This document shows positions 53,079-60,273 of a stretch of DNA of 64,000 bases, piece by piece. Under the pieces are notes generated by a model that was given only the letters and a program-made list of their open reading frames with translations, was not told the origin of the DNA and did no database searches. Positions within the stretch are counted from its first letter, which is position 1. The number at the start of each line of letters is the position of its first letter. Position numbers and translations under genes: made by a program. Source of the DNA: Chloroflexota bacterium (GTDB lineage: Bacteria > Chloroflexota > Limnocylindria > Limnocylindrales > CSP1-4); assembly GCA_025454515.1 (NCBI GenBank), contig JALOOH010000005.1, positions 84 through 64,083 of the forward strand, given 5' to 3'.

Positions 53079-54074
53079 TCAGCGTTGCTGAACGATGCCG
53101 GCCCGAGGCGACGGCGCGGGCGCGGACGCGGGCGCGACCACATGGCCGTCGCCGTCGCCGGCCCCCGGCCCGAGGAGCGCGGCGAGCGTGGTCGCCACCG
53201 CCGGGTGCGCCCGGCGCTCGGGCTTCAGCGCGACCATCACCCGGCGATGGAGGGGCGGATCGAGCGGGGCCACGATCGCGCGCACGTCCCGCTCGCGGAG
53301 CGCGAGGCCGGGCAGGACCGCCGCGCCGAGGCCTGCCTCGACGAGGGCGACGATCACGCCGTAGTCACGGCAGTTGGAGCGGACGATCGGCTCGAAGCCG
53401 GACCGCCGGAAGTGGCGGAGGACCGCGCGGTAGATGGTGCTCGTCTCCGTGTCCATGATCCATGGGACCGCAGCCAGGCCCTCGAGGGGCAGCGTGCCGC
53501 CCGGAGCGGCTGCGCGCGCGGCGAGCCCGGACGGCACCAGGTCGGGCGGTACGGCGACGAACAGGGGATCGTCCATCAGGTCGAGCAGCTCGACGCCGGG
53601 CTCGCGGACCCGCGCCGACTCGTCGTACTCGTCGACGAGCGCGAGGTCGACCTCGTCGAGGCGGAGCGCCGCGAGGCTCTCTTCGGTCTCGAGGTCCCGG
53701 AGGGTGAGGCGCAGGCGCGGGTTCGCCCGTCCCAGCTCCGCGATGACCCCCGGCACGATCGCACGAGCCGCCGTGGGGAAGGCGGCGATCCGCAGCGTCC
53801 CCGCGACCTCGTCGCGCGTGGCGGCGAGGTCGGATTCGGCCGCGACGATCGCCGCGGTGATCGCGTCGGCGTGGCGGACGAGCATCTCGCCGGCGTCGGT
53901 GAGCCGGACGAGACGGCCGTGGGGCTCGAGGAGGGCGACGCCGGCCTCGGCCTCGAGGATCCGGAGCTGCTGGCTGACGGCCGACGGAGTGACGGACATC
54001 GCCGCCGCGGCGGCGCGGATGGTGCCGCGGCGGCCGACCTCGCGGAGCAGCTGGAGCCGCCAGACCCCGAGCAT
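53079..54074 (-). CDS. LysR-family transcriptional regulator
   Basis: N-terminal HTH LLREVGRRGTIRAAAAAMSVTPSAVSQQLRILE plus LysR substrate-binding domain. Confidence 0.85.
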   Translation of the reverse strand: MLGVWRLQLLREVGRRGTIRAAAAAMSVTPSAVSQQLRILEAEAGVALLEPHGRLVRLTDAGEMLVRHADAITAAIVAAESDLAATRDEVAGTLRIAAFPTAARAIVPGVIAELGRANPRLRLTLRDLETEESLAALRLDEVDLALVDEYDESARVREPGVELLDLMDDPLFVAVPPDLVPSGLAARAAAPGGTLPLEGLAAVPWIMDTETSTIYRAVLRHFRRSGFEPIVRSNCRDYGVIVALVEAGLGAAVLPGLALRERDVRAIVAPLDPPLHRRVMVALKPERRAHPAVATTLAALLGPGAGDGDGHVVAPASAPAPSPRAGIVQQR

Positions 54075-54181
54075 CCGACCCTCCCTCGACCGTCCGGCGA
54101 CGGGCCGCGCCGGTCGTCCGAGTCTATCCCGTGCCGCCGGGCGGCGACCGCGTCACGGCCGCGCCCGGATCGCCGGCGACG

Positions 54182-54946
54182 TCACCCGACCATCGCCACC
54201 GCGGGCACCCGCACGCCCTCGCGCGCGAGGAGCGTCGACTTGATCGCGAGCATGTCGTCGCGCGTGCCGGTCCAGCCCCCGCCGTACCCGCCGAGCGTCC
54301 CGTCGCCGGCGAGGATCCGGTGGCAGGGCACGACGATCGGCACCGGGTTGCGTCCCAGCGCACCGCCGACGGCGCGCGCCGCCCCCGGCCGTCCGATCAT
54401 CCGCGCGAGCCTGCCGTACGACGTGACCTCCCCGTACCCGAGGCGCGCCGCGCCCCCGAGGACGGCGCGGTCCCAGTCCGAGAGGCCGGCGAGGTCCACC
54501 GGGACGTCGAACGACGTGCGCCGGCCGGCGAAGTACTCGTCGAGCTCGGTGACCGTCCGGTCGATCGTCGCGCGCCAGGCGGCCGGGACGGCCGGGTCCG
54601 ACATGGCGACGACGCGGCCGTGGAGCCGCCTCGCAACGTCCGCCACGAACTCCGCCTCGGGCTGCCGGAGGCTCACCGCGACGAGGCCGCGGTCCCCCGC
54701 GACGAGATGGACGGGGCCCCACGGGGCCGCGCACACGGCGTGGACGGCTGCGACGGGGGCCGCAGCCTCCGGGGAGGCGCCCCGGCGTGCCGCGGCCGCG
54801 CCGTCGGCCGCCGCGAGGGCCCGGCGCGTGCGCGCCTGGGCCGTGGCCGTCTCGGTCGCGAGCGCCGCGGCGTCGGGGATCGGGTCGCCGGAGCGGAGCA
54901 GCGCTTCGAGCGCCTGCGCGTCGGGGGTCCGGGTGCGGGGCGTCAT
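54182..54946 (-). CDS. ogt: methylated-DNA-[protein]-cysteine S-methyltransferase with ~65-aa N-terminal extension
   Basis: RBS ggaga. Active site VPCHRI. Helix-turn-helix (YGEVTSYGRLARMIG). Ogt N-terminal domain from about residue 70. The extra Ala-rich N-terminus has no obvious motif. Confidence 0.8.
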   Translation of the reverse strand: MTPRTRTPDAQALEALLRSGDPIPDAAALATETATAQARTRRALAAADGAAAARRGASPEAAAPVAAVHAVCAAPWGPVHLVAGDRGLVAVSLRQPEAEFVADVARRLHGRVVAMSDPAVPAAWRATIDRTVTELDEYFAGRRTSFDVPVDLAGLSDWDRAVLGGAARLGYGEVTSYGRLARMIGRPGAARAVGGALGRNPVPIVVPCHRILAGDGTLGGYGGGWTGTRDDMLAIKSTLLAREGVRVPAVAMVG

Positions 54947-55605
54947 CGGTGTGTCTCCAGGTGCGGCGCCAGCGTCGCGCGGAGGCGGCGGAGGCCGCGG
55001 CTCACGATCTGGCGCGCGTTCTCGTCGGTGCAGTCGAGGATCTCCGCGACCTCGGCGTACGCGGCGCCCTCGAGGACGCGCGCGACGACCGCTGCCCGTT
55101 CGCGGGCGGGCAGGGCCGCGAGCGCGGAGCGCACGGTCGCGCGCAGCTCGGCCGCCTCCGCGCGGGCCGCCGGGTCGTCCGAGGCGCCCGCCGCATGCTC
55201 GGCTGCGGCGTCCGGGGCGGCGGCCTCGACGGCGCGGACGGCCCGCCGCCGGTACGCGTCGGTGGCGACGTTGGCCGCGATCCGGTGGAGCCACGCCCGG
55301 TGGTTGGCCTCCGGGGGAAGCCGGTCCCACGCCCGGTGGGCGCGGAGGAAGGTCTCCTGGTGGAGGTCGGCGGCGTCCTCCGCCGTGAGGGTGAGTCGCC
55401 GGAGGTGGCGGTGGATCTCCGCTCCGTGCAGCTCGAGCAGGTCCGAGACCGATCCAGGCGTGGTGGGCCCGCCGGTGCCGGTGACGGGCGCGCGCGCCGG
55501 CGGCCGGCGCCGCGCGGCGTCGGCCGCCGCGGCGCCGGGTCCGTCGATGCGTGGTGCGCCCCGGGAGCCCGGGGTCCCGATGGGCGGGTCCTGGAAGGTC
55601 ATCAT
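54943..55605 (-). CDS. ECF-subfamily RNA polymerase sigma-70 factor
   Basis: Region 2 (LHQETFLRAHRAWDRL...RAWLHRIAANVATDAYRRR) and region 4 (LPARERAAVVARVLEGAAYAEVAEIL). 4-nt overlap with the ogt start. Low-complexity N-terminus, start uncertain. Confidence 0.8.
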   Translation of the reverse strand: MMTFQDPPIGTPGSRGAPRIDGPGAAAADAARRRPPARAPVTGTGGPTTPGSVSDLLELHGAEIHRHLRRLTLTAEDAADLHQETFLRAHRAWDRLPPEANHRAWLHRIAANVATDAYRRRAVRAVEAAAPDAAAEHAAGASDDPAARAEAAELRATVRSALAALPARERAAVVARVLEGAAYAEVAEILDCTDENARQIVSRGLRRLRATLAPHLETHR

Positions 55606-55762
55606 GCCCACTGTGACGCATCGGCCCGCCGGTCGTGACAGGGCGCTCTCCGGGCCGGGCCTCCCAGCCCGGCAGGTGGCCTCCATGCTCCCTCGCCCGC
55701 CGCCGCGCGGAGCGTCCGCCGTACGCTAGTCTCAACGACGCACAGCGGATGGAGGGCGAAGC

Positions 55763-56990
55763 ATGGCGGACACGGGAACGGATGCCGACGGGCGGGGGAT
55801 GATCCCGGATCCCGCGCGGGCTGACGAGACCCTCGACGCCACCGCGGCGGCCGCCGCCACGGCCGCCGGCGTGGCCGCGGATGCGGGCGCCGACCGGCCG
55901 GAGAGCGATCCGGTGTCCGCCGCGGCGCCCCCGAGCCGGCGCGCCGCCATCATGCGGTCGGGCCTCATCGTCGGCGTCCTCGTCATCGTCTTCGGCGTCA
56001 TCCTGCCGGCGACCGGCGTCGACTACAGCGATGTGCTCGCGGCGTTCCAGGCGCTGACGCCGGACCAGGTCATCGTGATCACCGTCCTCGGCGTGGTCGC
56101 CTGGCTCGTGAGCGGGCTCATCTTCTGCGCGCTCATCCCCGGGCTGTCGGTCCTCCGCGGCACTTCATCGTGGCTGATCCTGTCCGGCATCGGCTCGAGC
56201 ATCCCGTTCGGGCCGTGGAATATGGGCGTCCTCTGGGTGATCGTCCGCGGCTGGGGTGTGGCGAACATCCCGGCCACCTCCGGCATCGCCCTCTACGGCC
56301 TCGTCAACGAGCTCAGCCGGCTCGCGCTGCCCGTCATCTCGGTCGGGGCGCTGGCCGGGGATGCCGGACACGGAGAACGCCGGAACGGCCTGGACGATCG
56401 CCATCATCAGCGTCATCGCGTTCTTCCTGGTCACCGGCCTCATCGTCGCGATCGTCCGGTCGCAGCGCGTCGCGGACTGGCTCGGTGCCAGGGGCCAGTC
56501 GCTCGCCTCGTGGGTGATGCGCCGGCTCGGGCGGAAGGAAGCCCCGAATGTGGACGGCGCGATCCACCGCTTCCGCGACCAGCTCGGCGAGGTCATCCGT
56601 CGCCGCGGCCTCGCCTCGATCGCCATCGCGATCGCCTCGCAGTTCGTGTGGGCCACCGTCCTCGTCGTGGCGCTCTGGATGTGCGGCGTCCCGGAGTCGG
56701 CACTGAGCCCGGCGGCCGTCTTCGCCGTCTACGGGCTCGTGATGGTCATCACGATCATCCCGCTCTCACCGGGTGGCGCGGGCGTGCCGGAGCTGCTGTT
56801 CATCACCGGACTGACGGCGATCGCCGGCGACCAGTACAACGCCGCGATCACCGCCGGCGTCTTCCTGTACCGCCTGTACTACTGGTTCCTGCCCATCCCG
56901 CTCGCCTGGATCCTGCTGAAGGTGGCGCGCCGCGGGAAGCCCATGCTGCCGACGACGGCGGAGCTCAGGGCCAAGGCGCACGGCGCGTAG
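55763..56990 (+). pseudogene. flippase-like / lysylphosphatidylglycerol-synthase TM-domain family membrane protein, frameshifted
   Basis: Frame 1 (55763-about 56365) and frame +2 (about 56355-56990) together give a collinear ~410-aa polytopic protein (...LALPVISVGALAGDAG | TENAGTAWTIAIISVIAFFLV...). Frame 1 alone degenerates into Arg/His-rich sequence. Confidence 0.65.
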
Positions 56991-57049
56991 GCGGGGGCGG
57001 CGAGGACCGGGCTCCGGGCGGCGTGGATGGGGTCCGGGCGGCCCGGCCG

Positions 57050-58867
57050 TCAGGCCCCGGAGCCCGCCCCTGAGCCGTGTTCGTCGGCGCCTTCGAGCGC
57101 GAGCTCGCGCGCGAGCCCGTCCACGGCGGTGCCGAGCGACGCGTAGATCCGGTCCTCGCCTATCGCGTCCATCAGGCCGACCCTGCGCATGCGGTCGCGC
57201 ACCGGCCCGCGCACCTGCGCGAACGCGAGGATCATCGTGCGCTCGCCCATGTCGCGAAGGAGCGACGCGATCATGTCGGCCGTGGTCACGTCGAGGTCCG
57301 CGGTCGCCGCGAGGTCCACGACGACCGCGCGCGGCCGCGGGTCCGGTGCGTCCACGAGCCGGAGGATCTGCGTGTGCGCGACGTTCGCGTTGAAGAAGTA
57401 GAGGGGCGCGTCGACCCGCACGATGGCGAGTCCGGGCACGTACAGCGCCTGCGGGTGGCGTGCCAGGTCGCCGAACGTCCGCGGCTGCCCCGGCAACACC
57501 CCGATGGTCGCCACGTACGGCCTGCTCGCGCGGTACAGCAGGAAGGAGACGGACAGGATGACGGCGACGAGGAGGCCGGGCAGGACGCCGAAGGCCACGA
57601 CGCCGGCCAGGGCGGCCGTGGCCACGACGAAGTCCGTCCGGCGCCATCGCCAGTAGCGGCGCATCTCGCGCCAGTCCATCAGGCCGAGCGCGGCGGCGAT
57701 GACGATCGCGCCGAGGACCGCATTCGGCAGGTCGGTGAAGATCGGCGCGAGGACGAGCGCCGTCGCGAGGATGAGCAGCGACGTCACGAGCGACGAGAGC
57801 TGCGTCCGCGTGCCGGCGGCCTCGGCCGTCGAGGTCTGGGAAAGGCTCGCGTCCACCGCGAACCCGCCGAAGAGCCCGGACGACACGTTGGCTGCCCCGA
57901 GGGCCACGAGCTCCTGGTCCGGGTCGATCTCGTAGCGGTGCCGGTCGCCGAACGACCGCCCCACGCCGACCGTCTCGCCGACGGCGAGGAACACGAGCCC
58001 CACGGCGCCAAGGAGGAGCCCCGGCAGCGCGTCGAGAGGGACCTCGGGGATCCCCGGCCTGCCGATCCCCGTCTCGATCGGCCCGACGAGGCTCACCCCC
58101 TGCCCGGCGAGATCGAGCGCCTTCGCGGCCAGGATCCCGACGACCAGGACGACCAGGGCGCCCGGGATCCGCGGAGAGATCGCGCGGAGCCCGAAGATGA
58201 TGACGAGCGCCGTCAGCCCCACCGCGAGGGTGGTGGGATCCGTCTCGCCGAGCCCGCTGAGGATCCCCTGGACCTGCTCGGGGACCGAACCCGAGGTCGA
58301 CGGGATCCCGAGGATCTTCGGCACCTGGCCGACGACGATCGTGATCGCGACGCCGAAGATGAACCCGGTGATCACCGCCTTCGACAGGAAGTCGGAGATG
58401 AACCCCAGCCGGGCGATCCCGCCCGCGAAGAGGATGAGGCCGACGATGATCGCGAGCATCGCTGTCTCGGCGGCGAAGAGGACCGGGTCTCCGCTCGCGA
58501 CGTCGGCAACGATCGAGGCGGACGTGATCGCCATCGTCGAGCTCACGGTGACCTTGACGTGGCGGCTGGTCCCGAAGACGGCGTACGCCGCGAGCGCCGC
58601 GAACGCTGTCGCGAGGCCGAGCTCGGGCGGGACGCCCGCGAGTCCGGCGTAGGCGAGCGCGACGGGCACCATGACGCCCCACGACGTGAGGCCGGCGACG
58701 ACGTCCGGCCGCAGGTCGTCGCGGTGGTACGCCGGCAGCCACGTGAGGATCGGGACGTAGTGCCGGATCAGGACCGGTGCCCGCTCGCGGAGCGTGCGAC
58801 GCGCGGGCGCGCCCCCGGCCGGGGCCGGCTGGGACTCGGGTCCGCCTCCCGCCGGCACGCCGCTCAT
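57050..58867 (-). CDS. SulP-family sulfate permease with C-terminal STAS domain
   Basis: MSGVPAGGG...YHRDDLRPDVVAGLTSWGVMVPVALAYAGLAGVPP (SulP signature). The STAS domain is near the C-terminus. Confidence 0.85.
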   Translation of the reverse strand: MSGVPAGGGPESQPAPAGGAPARRTLRERAPVLIRHYVPILTWLPAYHRDDLRPDVVAGLTSWGVMVPVALAYAGLAGVPPELGLATAFAALAAYAVFGTSRHVKVTVSSTMAITSASIVADVASGDPVLFAAETAMLAIIVGLILFAGGIARLGFISDFLSKAVITGFIFGVAITIVVGQVPKILGIPSTSGSVPEQVQGILSGLGETDPTTLAVGLTALVIIFGLRAISPRIPGALVVLVVGILAAKALDLAGQGVSLVGPIETGIGRPGIPEVPLDALPGLLLGAVGLVFLAVGETVGVGRSFGDRHRYEIDPDQELVALGAANVSSGLFGGFAVDASLSQTSTAEAAGTRTQLSSLVTSLLILATALVLAPIFTDLPNAVLGAIVIAAALGLMDWREMRRYWRWRRTDFVVATAALAGVVAFGVLPGLLVAVILSVSFLLYRASRPYVATIGVLPGQPRTFGDLARHPQALYVPGLAIVRVDAPLYFFNANVAHTQILRLVDAPDPRPRAVVVDLAATADLDVTTADMIASLLRDMGERTMILAFAQVRGPVRDRMRRVGLMDAIGEDRIYASLGTAVDGLARELALEGADEHGSGAGSGA

Positions 58868-60273
58868 GTCCGCCCGTGACACTGCTTCACCTTCCGGCCG
58901 CTCCCACAAGGGCACGGGTCGTTCCGGCCCACGCGCGCGAGGGCCTCCCGCACCCGCGCATCCTCGGCAGCATACCGGGCCATGAGCTCGGCCGGGGCAC
59001 GGTCCCGGCGGAGCAGCTCGGCCATCGCGCGCATCGGTCCGTCCACGTGATGGAAGAACGCCAGGTAGCCCGCGCACAGGTAGTTCAGGCCGGGCTCGCC
59101 GTCGGGCGTCCGGATGAACCGGTCCTTGGGGCATCCCCCGTGACAGGCGAAGCGGACGTCGCACTCCCGGCACCAGCGGGGGAGCGTCTCGCGCTTCGCG
59201 AGCCCGAACGCCCGCTGGCGCTCCGATGCGACGAGCTCCGCCATCGGGGTCTCGGCGATGTTGCCCAGGCGGTACGCCTCCTCGACGAAGTGGTCGCAGC
59301 TGTACAGGTCGCCCGTGTGCTCGAGCGCGAGGGCGGTGCCGCATGTCTCCGAGTGGATGCACAGGCCATGCGGCTCGCCGTACCAGGAGGCGAGCGCGAC
59401 GTCGAACGGCTGAACGTAGACCCGGCCGACGTCGTGGCGGACCCACTCCTCGAAGACGCCGATGAGGAACGATCCGTACTGCGCGGCGGTGATCGAGCGG
59501 TCCGTGACCAGCTCGCCCTCCTGGCGGTAGAGGGGCCGGTCGCGCCAGGACGTCCAGGGCGCCTTCACGGACAGCCCGGGCGACACCTCCAGCGCGTCGA
59601 GCGGGACGTCCACCGCGGGGGCGGGAAGTCGCTCGATGATCGGGATGAGCTGCATGAACCGGATGCCGCACGCATCCCGGAGGAACCGGTAGACCTCGAC
59701 CGGGTGGTCCGCGTTCGCACGGTGCAGGGTCGTGAGGGCGTTCACCTCCACGCCGTGCCGCTGCAGCACCTCGAGGCCGCGCATGACCCGGTCGAAGGTG
59801 GGCGCGCCTCCCTTGTCCACCCGGTACGCGTCATGCATCGCGCGCGGGCCGTCGATGCTGATCCCGACGAGGAAGTCGTGCTCGCGGAAGAAGGCCGCCA
59901 GCTCGTCGTCGATGAGGGTCCCGTTCGTCTGGATCGTGTACGCGACGGACATCTCCGGGCGCCGATGCTTCTCGACGTACGCGACGGAGCGTCGGAAGAA
60001 GTCGATGCCCATGAGCGTGGGCTCGCCGCCCTGCCAGGCGATCGTCACCTCCGGGACGCGCTGGGCCTCGATGAGCTGCCGGATGTACGTCTCGAGCATC
60101 CCGTCCGCCATCCGGAAGCGGCTGCCGGGGTACAGCATCTCCTTGGACAGGAAGAAGCAGTACGCGCAGTCCAGGTTGCACGTCGCGCCGGTCGGCTTGG
60201 CGAGCAGGTGGAATGCCGGCGGGCCGGCCTGCCGCGCGGCACCAGGGCGTTCGGCGCCGGCGGGCTCAGGCAA
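58864..60273 (-). CDS. anaerobic sulfatase-maturating enzyme (radical SAM/SPASM) with C-terminal SEC-C metal-binding motif
   Basis: CNLDCAYCF radical-SAM cluster. SPASM cysteines (CRECDVRFACHGGCP). Terminal CPCGSGRKVKQCHG SEC-C motif. 4-nt overlap with the SulP start. Confidence 0.85.
   Translation of the reverse strand: MPEPAGAERPGAARQAGPPAFHLLAKPTGATCNLDCAYCFFLSKEMLYPGSRFRMADGMLETYIRQLIEAQRVPEVTIAWQGGEPTLMGIDFFRRSVAYVEKHRRPEMSVAYTIQTNGTLIDDELAAFFREHDFLVGISIDGPRAMHDAYRVDKGGAPTFDRVMRGLEVLQRHGVEVNALTTLHRANADHPVEVYRFLRDACGIRFMQLIPIIERLPAPAVDVPLDALEVSPGLSVKAPWTSWRDRPLYRQEGELVTDRSITAAQYGSFLIGVFEEWVRHDVGRVYVQPFDVALASWYGEPHGLCIHSETCGTALALEHTGDLYSCDHFVEEAYRLGNIAETPMAELVASERQRAFGLAKRETLPRWCRECDVRFACHGGCPKDRFIRTPDGEPGLNYLCAGYLAFFHHVDGPMRAMAELLRRDRAPAELMARYAAEDARVREALARVGRNDPCPCGSGRKVKQCHGRT

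What the first reader, a model, noticed from the sequence alone, without database searches (positions are those of the whole stretch)
54182..55605. ECF sigma factor translationally coupled to an N-terminally extended O6-alkylguanine methyltransferase instead of an anti-sigma factor
The gene overlapping the 3' end of an ECF sigma gene by ATGA is normally its anti-sigma. Here it is a 254-aa Ogt (PCHR active site) carrying about 65 extra N-terminal residues of Ala-rich helical sequence with no Ogt homology. One speculative reading is that the extension acts as an anti-sigma-like domain and that suicide methylation of Ogt releases the sigma factor, an Ada-like adaptive response built from different parts. 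At minimum it is an unusual operon pairing.
Basis: inference. Interest (0 to 1): 0.55.

Follow-up and report, generated by a model that had tools for sequence, protein, structure and literature searches.

The report
Sigma factor paired with extended Ogt
A stress-type (ECF) sigma factor gene is fused by an ATGA overlap to a DNA-alkylation repair enzyme (Ogt) carrying a conserved extra N-terminal module; this two-gene unit recurs in several phyla, and the repair enzyme is probably the sigma factor's own inhibitor and damage sensor.

Summary
An ECF sigma gene (54943-55605, minus strand, 220 aa) overlaps by ATGA a 254-aa Ogt (54182-54946). The Ogt has an intact PCHR site and about 65 extra N-terminal residues.

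The pairing is not rare. 41 of 80 Ogt loci from six or more phyla have an ECF sigma directly upstream, mostly with a 4-nt overlap. A review lists Ogt as the conserved neighbour of group ECF122, mechanism unknown.

- **Extension is real and selected.** A motif (LLRxGDPLP...E...A..RTR) is conserved in 38 homologues, followed by a variable linker.
- **Extension tracks the sigma gene.** At syntenic loci both are present or both absent (11 versus 7 loci, none discordant, p = 3e-5).
- **More distant modules are informative.** Some sigma-coupled Ogts carry a true zinc anti-sigma domain (HxxxCxxC) at the same position. One adds an Ada zinc domain. One protein is a single-chain sigma::Ogt fusion.
- **Shared promoter.** All types have TCAC-N16-(C/G)GT(C/T) 2-14 nt before the sigma start codon.
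- **No detectable homology.** The window's extension matches no known anti-sigma domain, and I could not run a complex model.

Best reading: Ogt is the cognate anti-sigma, and its suicide alkylation probably releases sigma. This is plausible but unproven.

The parts
55635..55639 (-). -35 element GTCAC of the sigma-ogt promoter
   Evidence: (T/G)TCAC-N16-CGTCA is conserved upstream of the sigma gene in all 11 related loci and in the window. It is the only match to TCAC-N16-CGTCA in the 64-kb window.
55614..55618 (-). -10 element CGTCA, 8 nt before the sigma start codon, which implies a leaderless or nearly leaderless mRNA
   Evidence: The distance from the motif end to the start codon is 2-11 nt in the related loci. 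The transcription start itself is inferred, not measured.
54943..55605 (-). ECF sigma factor gene (220 aa). About 50 low-complexity N-terminal residues, then sigma region 2 (nt 55240-55437) and region 4 (nt 54976-55134).
   Evidence: Pfam r2 and r4, and TIGR02937 at 94.9 bits. The exact protein P0130 is in public data. The MMT start is conserved in homologues.
54955..54958 (-). GGAG ribosome-binding site for ogt, inside the 3' end of the sigma gene
   Evidence: Read directly from the sequence: CTGGAGACACACCGATGA.
54943..54946 (-). ATGA overlap of the sigma stop codon and the ogt start codon (translational coupling)
   Evidence: The same 4-nt overlap occurs in 29 of 41 sigma-coupled genome loci and in the metagenome loci.
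54182..54946 (-). Complete gene for the N-terminally extended Ogt (254 aa)
   Evidence: exact protein P0001. AlphaFold2 mean pLDDT is 85.9. Foldseek against solved Ogt/AGT structures gives target-normalised TM 0.74-0.83.
54806..54919 (-). Conserved N-terminal module (aa 10-47): helix 10-20, a GDPIP turn, and the start of the long helix 26-56. Motif: LExLLRxGDPLPDxxxLxxExxxAxxRTRxAL.
   Evidence: Alignment of 38 homologues: L17, R18, D21, P22, L23, P24, L29, E32, A36, R39, T40 and A43 each carry 3.5-4.3 bits. The conserved residues fall on one helix face. AlphaFold2 block-mean pLDDT for aa 11-50 is 82-96. The module has no Cys. It is present only where a sigma gene is adjacent.
54755..54805 (-). 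Variable Ala/Gly/Arg-rich linker (aa 48-64)
   Evidence: Length varies from about 10 to about 90 residues among homologues, and the sequence is not conserved.
54491..54754 (-). Ogt N-terminal (ribonuclease-like) domain, aa 65-152
   Evidence: Pfam PF02870 at aa 70-152, E 4.4e-7. AlphaFold2 strands start at residue 65.
54212..54472 (-). Ogt C-terminal DNA-binding and alkyl-acceptor domain, aa 159-245. The PCHR active site is at nt 54317-54328 (Cys208).
   Evidence: Pfam PF01035, E 6.8e-25. Y177, R191, N200, P207-C208-H209-R210, Y221 and E243 are invariant in 38 homologues. PCHR is kept in all 45 sigma-coupled Ogts.

Best explanation
The locus is a self-contained two-gene module. The ECF sigma factor transcribes its own leaderless sigma-ogt mRNA from the promoter GTCAC-N16-CGTCA. 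Ogt is made in step with sigma through the ATGA overlap.

Ogt is a working O6-alkylguanine-DNA alkyltransferase. It is probably also the sigma's cognate anti-sigma factor. Its conserved two-helix N-terminal module, possibly helped by the Ogt N-domain, would hold sigma in an inactive 1:1 complex.

When Ogt repairs O6-alkylguanine, the alkyl group moves irreversibly to Cys208. I propose that the spent enzyme changes shape or is degraded and lets sigma go. Free sigma then re-expresses the operon and refills the Ogt pool in proportion to what was used. This would be an Ada-like adaptive response built on a sigma/anti-sigma pair.

**Shown here:**
- gene structure and gene coupling
- an intact catalytic site
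- conservation of the extension
- its strict co-occurrence with the sigma gene
- the shared promoter
- true anti-sigma domains at the same position in more distant sigma-Ogt modules

**Inferred:** binding of the extension to sigma (I put this at about 0.7), alkylation as the releasing signal (about 0.4-0.45), and the leaderless transcript.
For: 1. **Conserved module.** 41 of 80 Ogt loci from Chloroflexota, Actinomycetota, Acidobacteriota, Rokubacteria, Methylomirabilota and Syntrophobacter have an ECF sigma immediately upstream on the same strand. 29 of these have a 4-nt overlap.
2. **Extension goes with coupling.** Every sigma-coupled Ogt has an N-terminal extension of 18-129 aa by my start-codon assignments (at least 27 aa in all but one locus). 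The uncoupled relatives I checked begin about 10-20 residues before the core.
3. **Joint gain or loss.** Among the window's close relatives, sigma and extension are present together or absent together. Some of these are orthologous loci with shared downstream synteny (Creatinase_N/Peptidase_M24, POR/TPP). The count is 11 versus 7 loci with none discordant, Fisher p = 3.1e-5.
4. **Selection on the extension.** Information content is 3.5-4.3 bits at 12 positions, lying on one face of the helix, and substitutions show a third-codon-position excess.
5. **True anti-sigma domains in more distant modules.** Sigma-coupled Ogts in L036, L039, L067 and L070 start with a C...HxxxCxxC domain. Pfam zf-HC2 scores 22.4 bits for L067, above the 22.2 cut-off. 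Their only NCBIfam hits are the anti-sigma families RsrA and ChrR. Their sigmas (82-103 bits) and those of the other non-actinobacterial coupled types (68-111 bits) mostly score higher against the window sigma than the generic ECFs returned from 5.8 billion proteins (76 bits or less, apart from P0172 at 101 bits, context unknown).
6. **Rosetta-stone fusion.** P0122 is a natural 407-aa sigma(r2, r4)::Ogt single chain.
7. **Ada link.** P0123 combines an N-terminal extension, Ogt and Ada_Zn_binding (39 bits). It starts after a 4-nt gap behind an ECF sigma gene.
8. **Shared promoter.** TCAC-N16-18-GT(T/C) lies upstream of sigma in 36 of 44 coupled loci, against 6% of background windows (p = 1e-36). 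It ends 2-14 nt before the start codon in nearly all loci (25 nt in one). A positively autoregulated sigma needs a co-made inhibitor; this is general ECF knowledge.
9. **No other candidate nearby.** No other anti-sigma-like gene flanks the sigma. The neighbours are LysR and a membrane LPG_synthase_TM gene.
10. **Only one conserved thiol.** Cys208 is the only conserved Cys in the protein. The extension has none, so any alkylation signal must pass through the active site.
Against: - The window-type extension has no detectable similarity to any anti-sigma domain. Pfam zf-HC2 hits 0 of 38 members even at E <= 10. NCBIfam gives no hit. hhalign against the zinc-type extensions gives 1.3% probability.
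- The extension is predicted as only two helices, not the four-helix class I fold.
- The extension types in different phyla are not demonstrably homologous, so they could serve different roles.
- The actinobacterial type is only about 18 extra residues, which is short for a sigma-binding element.
- High monomer pLDDT of the extension could mean it packs on Ogt itself.
- No sigma-Ogt complex model could be made.
- No second promoter with the motif was found in the window or in the 3-6 kb flanks held for the other loci, so no wider alkylation regulon is visible.
- No experiment on any member was found in the searchable literature.
Confidence: 0.45

Rival explanations
1. Co-expression only. The sigma factor is merely the dedicated transcription factor for ogt and is controlled in some other way (transcriptionally, or by an unlinked regulator). 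The N-terminal extension is a lineage-specific appendage serving Ogt itself, for example in DNA binding, oligomerisation or stability. It does not touch sigma.
For: - There is no sequence or profile similarity between the window's extension and any anti-sigma domain.
- ECF groups without anti-sigma factors are known, and ECF122 is listed among them with unknown mechanism (PMC8999054).
- The extension is predicted with high confidence in the monomer.
Against: - Sigma and extension are gained and lost together at syntenic loci, with no discordant case.
- More distant sigma-Ogt modules carry a real zinc anti-sigma domain in that position.
- A sigma::Ogt fusion exists.
- An Ogt-intrinsic role for the extension would not explain its absence from all uncoupled paralogues.
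- A sigma with a self-activating promoter and no inhibitor would be locked on.
Confidence: 0.2
2. Anti-sigma, but with a different signal. Ogt's extension does sequester sigma, but release is triggered by something other than alkyl transfer to Cys208. Candidates are Ogt engaging DNA, regulated proteolysis, or, in the zinc-type relatives, thiol oxidation or direct alkylation of the zinc site as in RsrA or Ada.
For: - The zinc-type extensions resemble the redox- and electrophile-sensitive RsrA family.
- P0123 and L067/L070 add an Ada-type zinc domain, which in Ada is the true regulatory methyl acceptor.
- Ogt is a DNA-binding protein.
Against: - The window-type, actinobacterial and Anaerolineae-type extensions contain no cysteine, so a zinc or thiol switch is impossible there.
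- All 45 coupled Ogts keep PCHR. This argues that catalysis matters to the module, though it would be kept for repair alone.
Confidence: 0.2
3. Recruitment, not inhibition. The extension binds sigma so as to deliver Ogt to RNA polymerase holoenzyme or to promoters, as a form of transcription-associated repair. Sigma activity is not blocked.
For: Only the co-occurrence and fusion data, which show a functional link but not its sign.
Against: - Where the extension is recognisable, it is a class I zinc anti-sigma domain. In the characterised systems I know of, that domain occludes the core-binding surfaces of sigma.
- No precedent is known to me.
- The only promoter found is the module's own.
Confidence: 0.07

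Closest known systems
ECF sigma group ECF122 (Casas-Pastor et al. 2021 classification, as summarised in Marcos-Torres et al. 2022, PMC8999054)
   Same: Both are ECF sigmas with no recognisable anti-sigma factor and a conserved 6-O-methylguanine DNA methyltransferase gene in the neighbourhood. The review lists the group under 'unknown mechanism'.
   Different: - The cited example is actinobacterial (Cellulomonas). The window is from Chloroflexota (Limnocylindrales-like).
- The window sigma scores only 43-59 bits against the actinobacterial Ogt-coupled sigmas, but 68-111 bits against Ogt-coupled sigmas of other phyla.
- Group membership could not be tested because the group HMMs and the supplement were unavailable.
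- The conserved extension, the zinc-anti-sigma::Ogt fusions and the shared promoter do not appear in the two ECF papers I could read or in my literature searches.
Zinc-binding class I anti-sigma factors paired with ECF sigmas (RsrA-SigR, ChrR-SigE, RslA-SigL)
   Same: - The gene lies immediately downstream of the sigma gene and is translationally coupled to it.
- The operon is autoregulated.
- More distant sigma-Ogt modules (L036, L039, L067, L070) have a C...HxxxCxxC domain that matches zf-HC2, RsrA and ChrR models.
   Different: - The window's extension has no Cys or His ligands, matches none of these models, and is predicted as two helices rather than four.
- The output domain is a suicide DNA-repair enzyme, not a redox-sensing or membrane-spanning domain.
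Ada adaptive response of E. coli
   Same: - A methyl-acceptor repair protein would double as the damage sensor.
- It would drive positive feedback on its own synthesis.
- The Ogt domain is homologous to Ada's C-terminal domain (NF011964 alignment; structure 1sfe).
- One sigma-coupled relative also carries the Ada zinc domain.
   Different: - The window protein has no AraC-type helix-turn-helix and no zinc phosphotriester-acceptor domain.
- Output would go through release of a sigma factor rather than through direct promoter binding.
- In Ada the main regulatory methylation is on the N-terminal zinc-site Cys38, not on the Ogt-type cysteine (my own knowledge).
Short helical anti-sigma factors (class II CnrY, NepR)
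   Same: These are small, cysteine-free sigma-binding elements of about two helices. This is my own knowledge and serves as a lead only.
   Different: No Pfam match other than a weak HTH_15 hit was reported for the extension even at E <= 10. No structural comparison of the extension alone was possible.
Stand-alone Ogt/AGT (M. tuberculosis OGT, E. coli Ogt, human MGMT)
   Same: - The two-domain fold and all catalytic residues are shared.
- Alkylated human MGMT is destabilised and degraded (my own knowledge). This is the precedent for a 'spent enzyme' signal.
   Different: Solved enzymes are 148-169 residues long and lack the roughly 65-residue extension. Their genes are not described as sigma-coupled.

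Membership tests
ECF (group IV) sigma-70 factors | Only sigma regions 2 and 4; match to the ECF family model | tested here: met
   Pfam r2 at aa 57-122 and r4 at aa 158-210, with no r3 or r1 match. TIGR02937 scores 94.9 bits against a cut-off of 42.9.
ECF (group IV) sigma-70 factors | Own gene preceded by a group-specific bipartite promoter with a CGT-type -10 element (autoregulation) | tested here: met
   GTCAC-N16-CGTCA at 55614-55639. It is conserved in 11 of 11 related loci, and the relaxed form occurs in 36 of 44 coupled loci (p = 1e-36). Actual use of the promoter was not tested.
ECF122 (Ogt-associated ECF group) | Conserved 6-O-methylguanine DNA methyltransferase gene in the neighbourhood | tested here: met
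   Ogt sits at +1, overlapping by 4 nt. This holds in 11 of 11 sampled loci of the sigma clade.
ECF122 (Ogt-associated ECF group) | Assignment by the group's own HMM or phylogenetic position | not testable with these tools
   The group models and the paper's supplement are not held. Similarity to actinobacterial Ogt-coupled sigmas is low, at 43-59 bits.
O6-alkylguanine-DNA alkyltransferase (Ogt/AGT/Ada-C) | PCHR acceptor cysteine plus the Asn hinge, Tyr, Arg finger and Glu of the catalytic network | tested here: met
   P207-C208-H209-R210, N200, Y177, R191, Y221 and E243 are invariant in 38 homologues. TIGR00589 scores 81 bits against a cut-off of 46.4.
O6-alkylguanine-DNA alkyltransferase (Ogt/AGT/Ada-C) | Two-domain fold (N-terminal alpha/beta domain plus C-terminal helix-turn-helix domain) | tested here: met
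   AlphaFold2 model with pLDDT 85.9. Foldseek against M. tuberculosis OGT, Ada-C and human AGT gives E 1e-12 to 1e-9 and target-normalised TM 0.74-0.83.
O6-alkylguanine-DNA alkyltransferase (Ogt/AGT/Ada-C) | Stoichiometric alkyl transfer from DNA | not testable with these tools
   Needs biochemistry.
Class I / zinc-binding anti-sigma domain (zf-HC2, ZAS) | HxxxCxxC zinc motif and a match to zf-HC2 or anti-sigma family models | tested here: not met
   The window extension has no Cys. 0 of 38 window-type proteins hit zf-HC2 at E <= 10. NCBIfam gives no hit. hhalign against the zinc-type extensions gives 1.3% probability. The feature is met in the more distant modules L067 (22.4 bits), L039, L043 and L036.
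Class I / zinc-binding anti-sigma domain (zf-HC2, ZAS) | Four-helix anti-sigma domain fold | tested here: not met
   AlphaFold2 predicts two helices (aa 10-20 and 26-56) before the Ogt domain.
Anti-sigma factors in general (functional class) | Encoded directly downstream of, and co-translated with, the cognate ECF sigma; presence tied to that sigma | tested here: met
   ATGA overlap. Sigma and extension co-occur at 11 versus 7 loci with none discordant.
Anti-sigma factors in general (functional class) | Binds sigma and blocks its association with core RNA polymerase | not testable with these tools
No experiment is available.
Ada (bifunctional regulator/methyltransferase) | N-terminal Zn(Cys)4 methyl-phosphotriester acceptor and AraC-type helix-turn-helix | tested here: not met
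   Neither domain is in the window protein. The Ada equivalog NF011964 scores 71.9 bits against a cut-off of 345. An Ada_Zn_binding domain is present in the sigma-coupled relative P0123.

The most novel reading that the evidence does not exclude
A suicide DNA-repair enzyme acts as sensor and anti-sigma factor in one polypeptide. Each O6-alkylguanine repaired consumes one Ogt molecule and thereby frees one sigma molecule. The only nearby target of that sigma is its own leaderless sigma-ogt operon. The result would be a stoichiometric, self-refilling homeostat for alkylation repair. It would be present in at least six bacterial phyla, with interchangeable sigma-binding modules (a zinc anti-sigma domain, the LLRxGDPLP module, or a short actinobacterial helix). 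It would work like Ada but be built from different parts.
Probability: 0.35. Interest if true: 0.8.

Novelty: new variant of a known kind. Interest (0 to 1): 0.63.

Why it matters
ECF sigma factors are a major route of bacterial signalling, and groups without a recognisable anti-sigma are open problems. ECF122, with its Ogt neighbour, is explicitly listed as 'mechanism unknown'.

The comparative data here turn that note into a concrete, testable model: the neighbour is the anti-sigma. The data supply:
- the candidate interaction module
- the promoter to assay
- natural controls, namely zinc-type fusions, a single-chain fusion, and syntenic loci lacking both parts

If the alkylation-release step holds, three things would follow:
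- It would be a new sensing principle for anti-sigma factors, in which consumption of a single-turnover enzyme is the signal.
- It would explain how several phyla could induce alkylation repair by a route other than Ada.
- It would give a compact methylation-responsive switch for synthetic biology.

If only co-expression holds, the finding is an ordinary operon.

Tried and rejected
- **Complex model.** I built 17 chimeric sigma-(GGGGS)6-Ogt sequences (A2).
- **Model of the natural fusion P0122.** MAFFT placed sigma region 4 of the sigma-only rows onto the Ogt helix-turn-helix (A3; sandbox tests). No valid combined alignment could be made, so the second structure job was not spent.
- **Homology of the window extension to anti-sigma domains.**
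  - Pfam at E <= 10 found only a weak HTH_15 hit (E 0.03-0.25), which I regard as noise.
  - NCBIfam gave nothing.
  - hhalign between the extension types found only types C and E related, at 76%. All comparisons with the window type gave about 1% or less.
  - My by-eye alignment of LLRxGDPLP...E...A..RTR to the LDGEL...H...C..C pattern of zinc anti-sigma domains is therefore not supported and is dropped.
- **ECF122 description.** It is absent from the main text and preprint of Casas-Pastor et al., and the supplement is not held.
- **Literature.** Searches for any experimental sigma-Ogt or anti-sigma-alkyltransferase work found nothing relevant.
- **Regulon search.** The promoter motif occurs once in the window, at its own promoter. 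In about 94 loci it occurs almost only at the sigma promoters.
- **Consensus scans.** The terminator and sigma-70 promoter scans of 53800-55900 found nothing, which is uninformative at 79% G+C.
- **Internal start codon for Ogt.** Rejected.
- **Longer 247-aa sigma ORF starting at 55686.** Rejected because the conserved promoter would lie inside it and homologues start at MMT.
- **LysR gene downstream (53079-54074).** It is conserved only in the syntenic locus L091, not across the family, so I do not count it as part of the module.
Full report
**Observation**

The window is about 73-79% G+C. Its Ogt protein is identical to one annotated from a Chloroflexi MAG, and the nearest relatives are Candidatus Limnocylindrales.

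Two genes lie on the minus strand:
- An ECF sigma gene at 54943-55605 (220 aa). Pfam finds Sigma70_r2 at aa 57-122 and r4 at aa 158-210. TIGR02937 scores 94.9 bits.
- An Ogt gene at 54182-54946 (254 aa). Pfam finds Methyltransf_1N at aa 70-152 and DNA_binding_1 at aa 159-245. PCHR is at aa 207-210.

The Ogt ATG overlaps the sigma TGA as ATGA, at 54943-54946. A GGAG lies 8 nt upstream. Residues 1-69 of Ogt match no Ogt model.

AlphaFold2 with a 38-sequence alignment gave mean pLDDT 85.9. It predicts helix 10-20, a GDPIP turn and a long helix 26-56, with the first Ogt strand at residue 65. Foldseek matches the solved Ogt, AGT and Ada-C structures (E 1e-12 to 1e-9, target-normalised TM 0.74-0.83). 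These are 148-169 residues long and do not cover the extension.

**The extension is real and under selection**

Of the 120 best Ogt homologues, about 60 are long, with 53-132 residues before the core. About 55 are short, with 11-25 residues.

The long forms share LExLLRxGDPLPDxxxLxxExxxAxxRTRxAL. This is followed by a linker whose length (about 10-90 residues) and sequence are not conserved. L17, R18, D21, P22, L23, P24, L29, E32, A36, R39, T40 and A43 carry 3.5-4.3 bits each. Within the long helix they fall on one face.

Nucleotide differences among ten loci in this stretch are 492, 445 and 821 at codon positions 1, 2 and 3. An internal start codon is therefore excluded.

**The pairing is widespread and already catalogued**

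A scan of one genome per species returned 80 Ogt loci.
- 41 have an ECF sigma gene immediately upstream on the same strand.
- 29 of these have a 4-nt overlap, and most of the rest overlap or lie within 3 nt.
- They come from Chloroflexota (Limnocylindrales, Anaerolineae, Sphaerobacteraceae), Actinomycetota (Gaiellales, Thermoleophilia, Acidimicrobiia, Kineococcus, Aquihabitans), Acidobacteriota, Rokubacteria, Methylomirabilota and Syntrophobacter.

A review of non-canonical ECF sigma factors lists 6-O-methylguanine DNA methyltransferases as the conserved neighbour of group ECF122. It files that group under 'unknown mechanism', with a Cellulomonas example (PMC8999054). I could not read the original group description. 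I found no experimental study of any such pair. So the pairing is not 'unusual', but its role is open.

**The extension travels with the sigma gene**

Every sigma-coupled Ogt has an N-terminal extension of 18-129 residues by my start-codon assignments, at least 27 in all but one locus.

From the sigma side, the window sigma belongs to a tight clade: 41 full-length proteins at 142 bits or more, plus one fragment at 122 bits, then a drop to generic ECFs at about 100 bits or less. Every sampled locus of this clade (11 of 11) has an Ogt with the LRxxDPLP motif at +1. The nearest sampled outgroup ECF has a different partner.

Short Ogt homologues of the same lineage (P0074, P0070) sit in the same neighbourhood as long ones (P0038, P0045). 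All four have POR/TPP-enzyme genes downstream, three have Creatinase_N/Peptidase_M24, and two share an upstream P-type ATPase. The short ones have neither sigma nor extension. Counting distinct loci gives 11 with both and 7 with neither, none discordant (Fisher p = 3.1e-5).

**What more distant sigma-Ogt modules carry in that position**

The extensions fall into lineage-specific types.
- The Limnocylindrales motif found in the window.
- A short actinobacterial helix (MTxVPDxLDRRFREAAA).
- An Anaerolineae type (WLGD...P...ALD.LY..GP).
- A genuine zinc anti-sigma domain, in L036, L039, L067 and L070, and in the orphan L043. It has an N-terminal Cys and HxxxCxxC. Pfam zf-HC2 scores 22.4 bits for L067 (cut-off 22.2) and 12-19 bits for the others. 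Their only NCBIfam hits are the anti-sigma families RsrA (E 3e-5 to 0.05) and ChrR.

The sigmas of these zinc-type loci score 82-103 bits against the window sigma, and those of the Anaerolineae-type and related loci score 68-111 bits. Most of these exceed the generic ECFs recovered from 5.8 billion proteins (76 bits or less). One exception is P0172 at 101 bits, whose context is unknown. The actinobacterial coupled sigmas score only 43-59 bits.

A concatenated sigma+Ogt query found two further proteins.
- P0122 is a natural 407-aa protein with sigma r2, sigma r4 and both Ogt domains in one chain.
- P0123 has an N-terminal helical region, the Ogt domain and an Ada_Zn_binding domain (39 bits against a cut-off of 23). 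It is encoded after a 4-nt gap behind an ECF sigma gene.

All 45 coupled Ogts keep PCHR. Outside the zinc type, the extensions are essentially Cys-free (44 of 45 loci follow this rule).

**Limits of the homology argument**

The window-type extension is not recognisably an anti-sigma domain.
- 0 of 38 members hit zf-HC2 even at E <= 10.
- NCBIfam gives nothing.
- hhalign against the zinc type gives 1.3% probability.
- The prediction shows two helices, not four.

The case for an anti-sigma role therefore rests on position, co-occurrence and analogy with more distant modules. It does not rest on membership of a known anti-sigma family. I could not obtain a sigma-Ogt complex model.

**Promoter**

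All 11 related loci and the window carry (T/G)TCAC-N16-CGTCA. It ends 2-11 nt before a conserved (A/G)TGATGAC start. In the window, GTCAC is at 55639-55635, CGTCA at 55618-55614 and the ATG at 55605. It is the only such site in the 64-kb window (chance expectation 0.64).

The other types have the same architecture with slightly different -10 elements. Actinomycetota have TCTCACA-N16-CGTT. The Anaerolineae and zinc types have TTTCACA-N16-GGTTATA. The relaxed motif lies upstream of sigma in 36 of 44 coupled loci, against 6% of background windows (p = 1e-36).

With strict patterns, nearly all hits in about 94 loci are the sigma genes' own promoters. From general ECF knowledge, this indicates positive autoregulation, a leaderless or near-leaderless transcript and a shared promoter specificity. 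No second target promoter is visible in the window or in the 3-6 kb flanks held for the other loci.

**Mechanism proposed**

The module is an autoregulated, translationally coupled sigma/Ogt pair. Ogt most likely acts as the cognate anti-sigma through its N-terminal module (my estimate is about 0.7).

Cys208 is the only conserved cysteine, and alkyl transfer to it is irreversible. The simplest signal is therefore that spent Ogt releases sigma, either by conformational change or by degradation, as is known for alkylated human MGMT (my own knowledge). Released sigma would then re-express the operon. This step is inference (about 0.4-0.45).

The rivals are:
- co-expression only
- an anti-sigma role with another signal
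- non-inhibitory recruitment of Ogt to RNA polymerase

**Verdict**

The anti-sigma idea is strengthened by comparative data. 'Unusual pairing' is wrong, because the pairing is common and was recorded as ECF122-type.

I class it as a new variant of a known kind. It is a sigma/anti-sigma pair whose anti-sigma candidate is a suicide repair enzyme with a previously undescribed, zinc-free sigma-associated module. Interest is moderate to high because it makes an 'unknown mechanism' ECF group directly testable.

Noticed in passing
window 55763-56990 (+): The divergent membrane gene (LPG_synthase_TM, PF03706) is split over two reading frames. ORF 55763-57073 turns Arg/Pro-rich after about 200 aa, and ORF 56256-56990 carries the Pfam match. 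The syntenic orthologue in L091 is one intact 399-aa gene. This is probably a frameshift, from either an assembly error or a pseudogene.
   Followed up: partly
L093:1747-3106 and L094:1798-3157 (protein P0123): An ECF sigma gene is followed, after a 4-nt gap, by a 260-aa protein. That protein has an N-terminal helical region, the Ogt DNA_binding_1 domain and an Ada_Zn_binding domain (39 bits, above the cut-off). It therefore holds both methyl-acceptor modules of Ada, placed next to a sigma factor instead of an AraC helix-turn-helix.
   Followed up: partly
protein P0122 (407 aa, source not given): A natural single-chain fusion of an ECF sigma (r2 at aa 32-97, r4 at aa 135-182) with a complete Ogt (aa 245-405). 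I could not determine whether it is a true gene fusion or a lost stop codon.
   Followed up: partly
L067:3596-4555 and L070:3740-4696: The zinc-anti-sigma::Ogt proteins of a Rokubacteria MAG and a Methylomirabilota MAG have an extra Cys-rich C-terminal tail of about 65 aa. It gives a weak Ada_Zn_binding match (E 0.006, below the cut-off).
   Followed up: partly
L043:3740-4501: A Vicinamibacterales Ogt has a zinc anti-sigma-type N-terminus (AHVGECPRC) but no sigma gene beside it. It is an orphan copy of the fusion.
   Followed up: partly
window 53079-54074 (-): A LysR-family regulator lies 107 nt downstream of ogt on the same strand. It is also present in the syntenic locus L091 but not in other members, so it is probably a neighbour rather than part of the module.
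   Followed up: partly
window 58864-60273 (-) and 57050-59671 (-): One ORF has a CxxxCxxC motif (NLDCAYCFF) with a radical-SAM/SPASM look. It lies next to, and in the ORF list overlaps, a SulP/STAS-type transporter. Neither was checked with a family search.
   Followed up: no
proteins P0124-P0129: The weaker hits to the concatenated query show other known Ogt fusions: with HhH-GPD (AlkA-type glycosylase), and with Ada_Zn plus an AraC helix-turn-helix (classical Ada). These are useful as contrasts to the sigma-coupled form.
   Followed up: no
L004:3189-4784: In the closest genome-collection relative, from a Chloroflexia MAG, ogt is broken into two frames although the LQAGDPLP motif is present. 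This is probably a sequencing frameshift.
   Followed up: no
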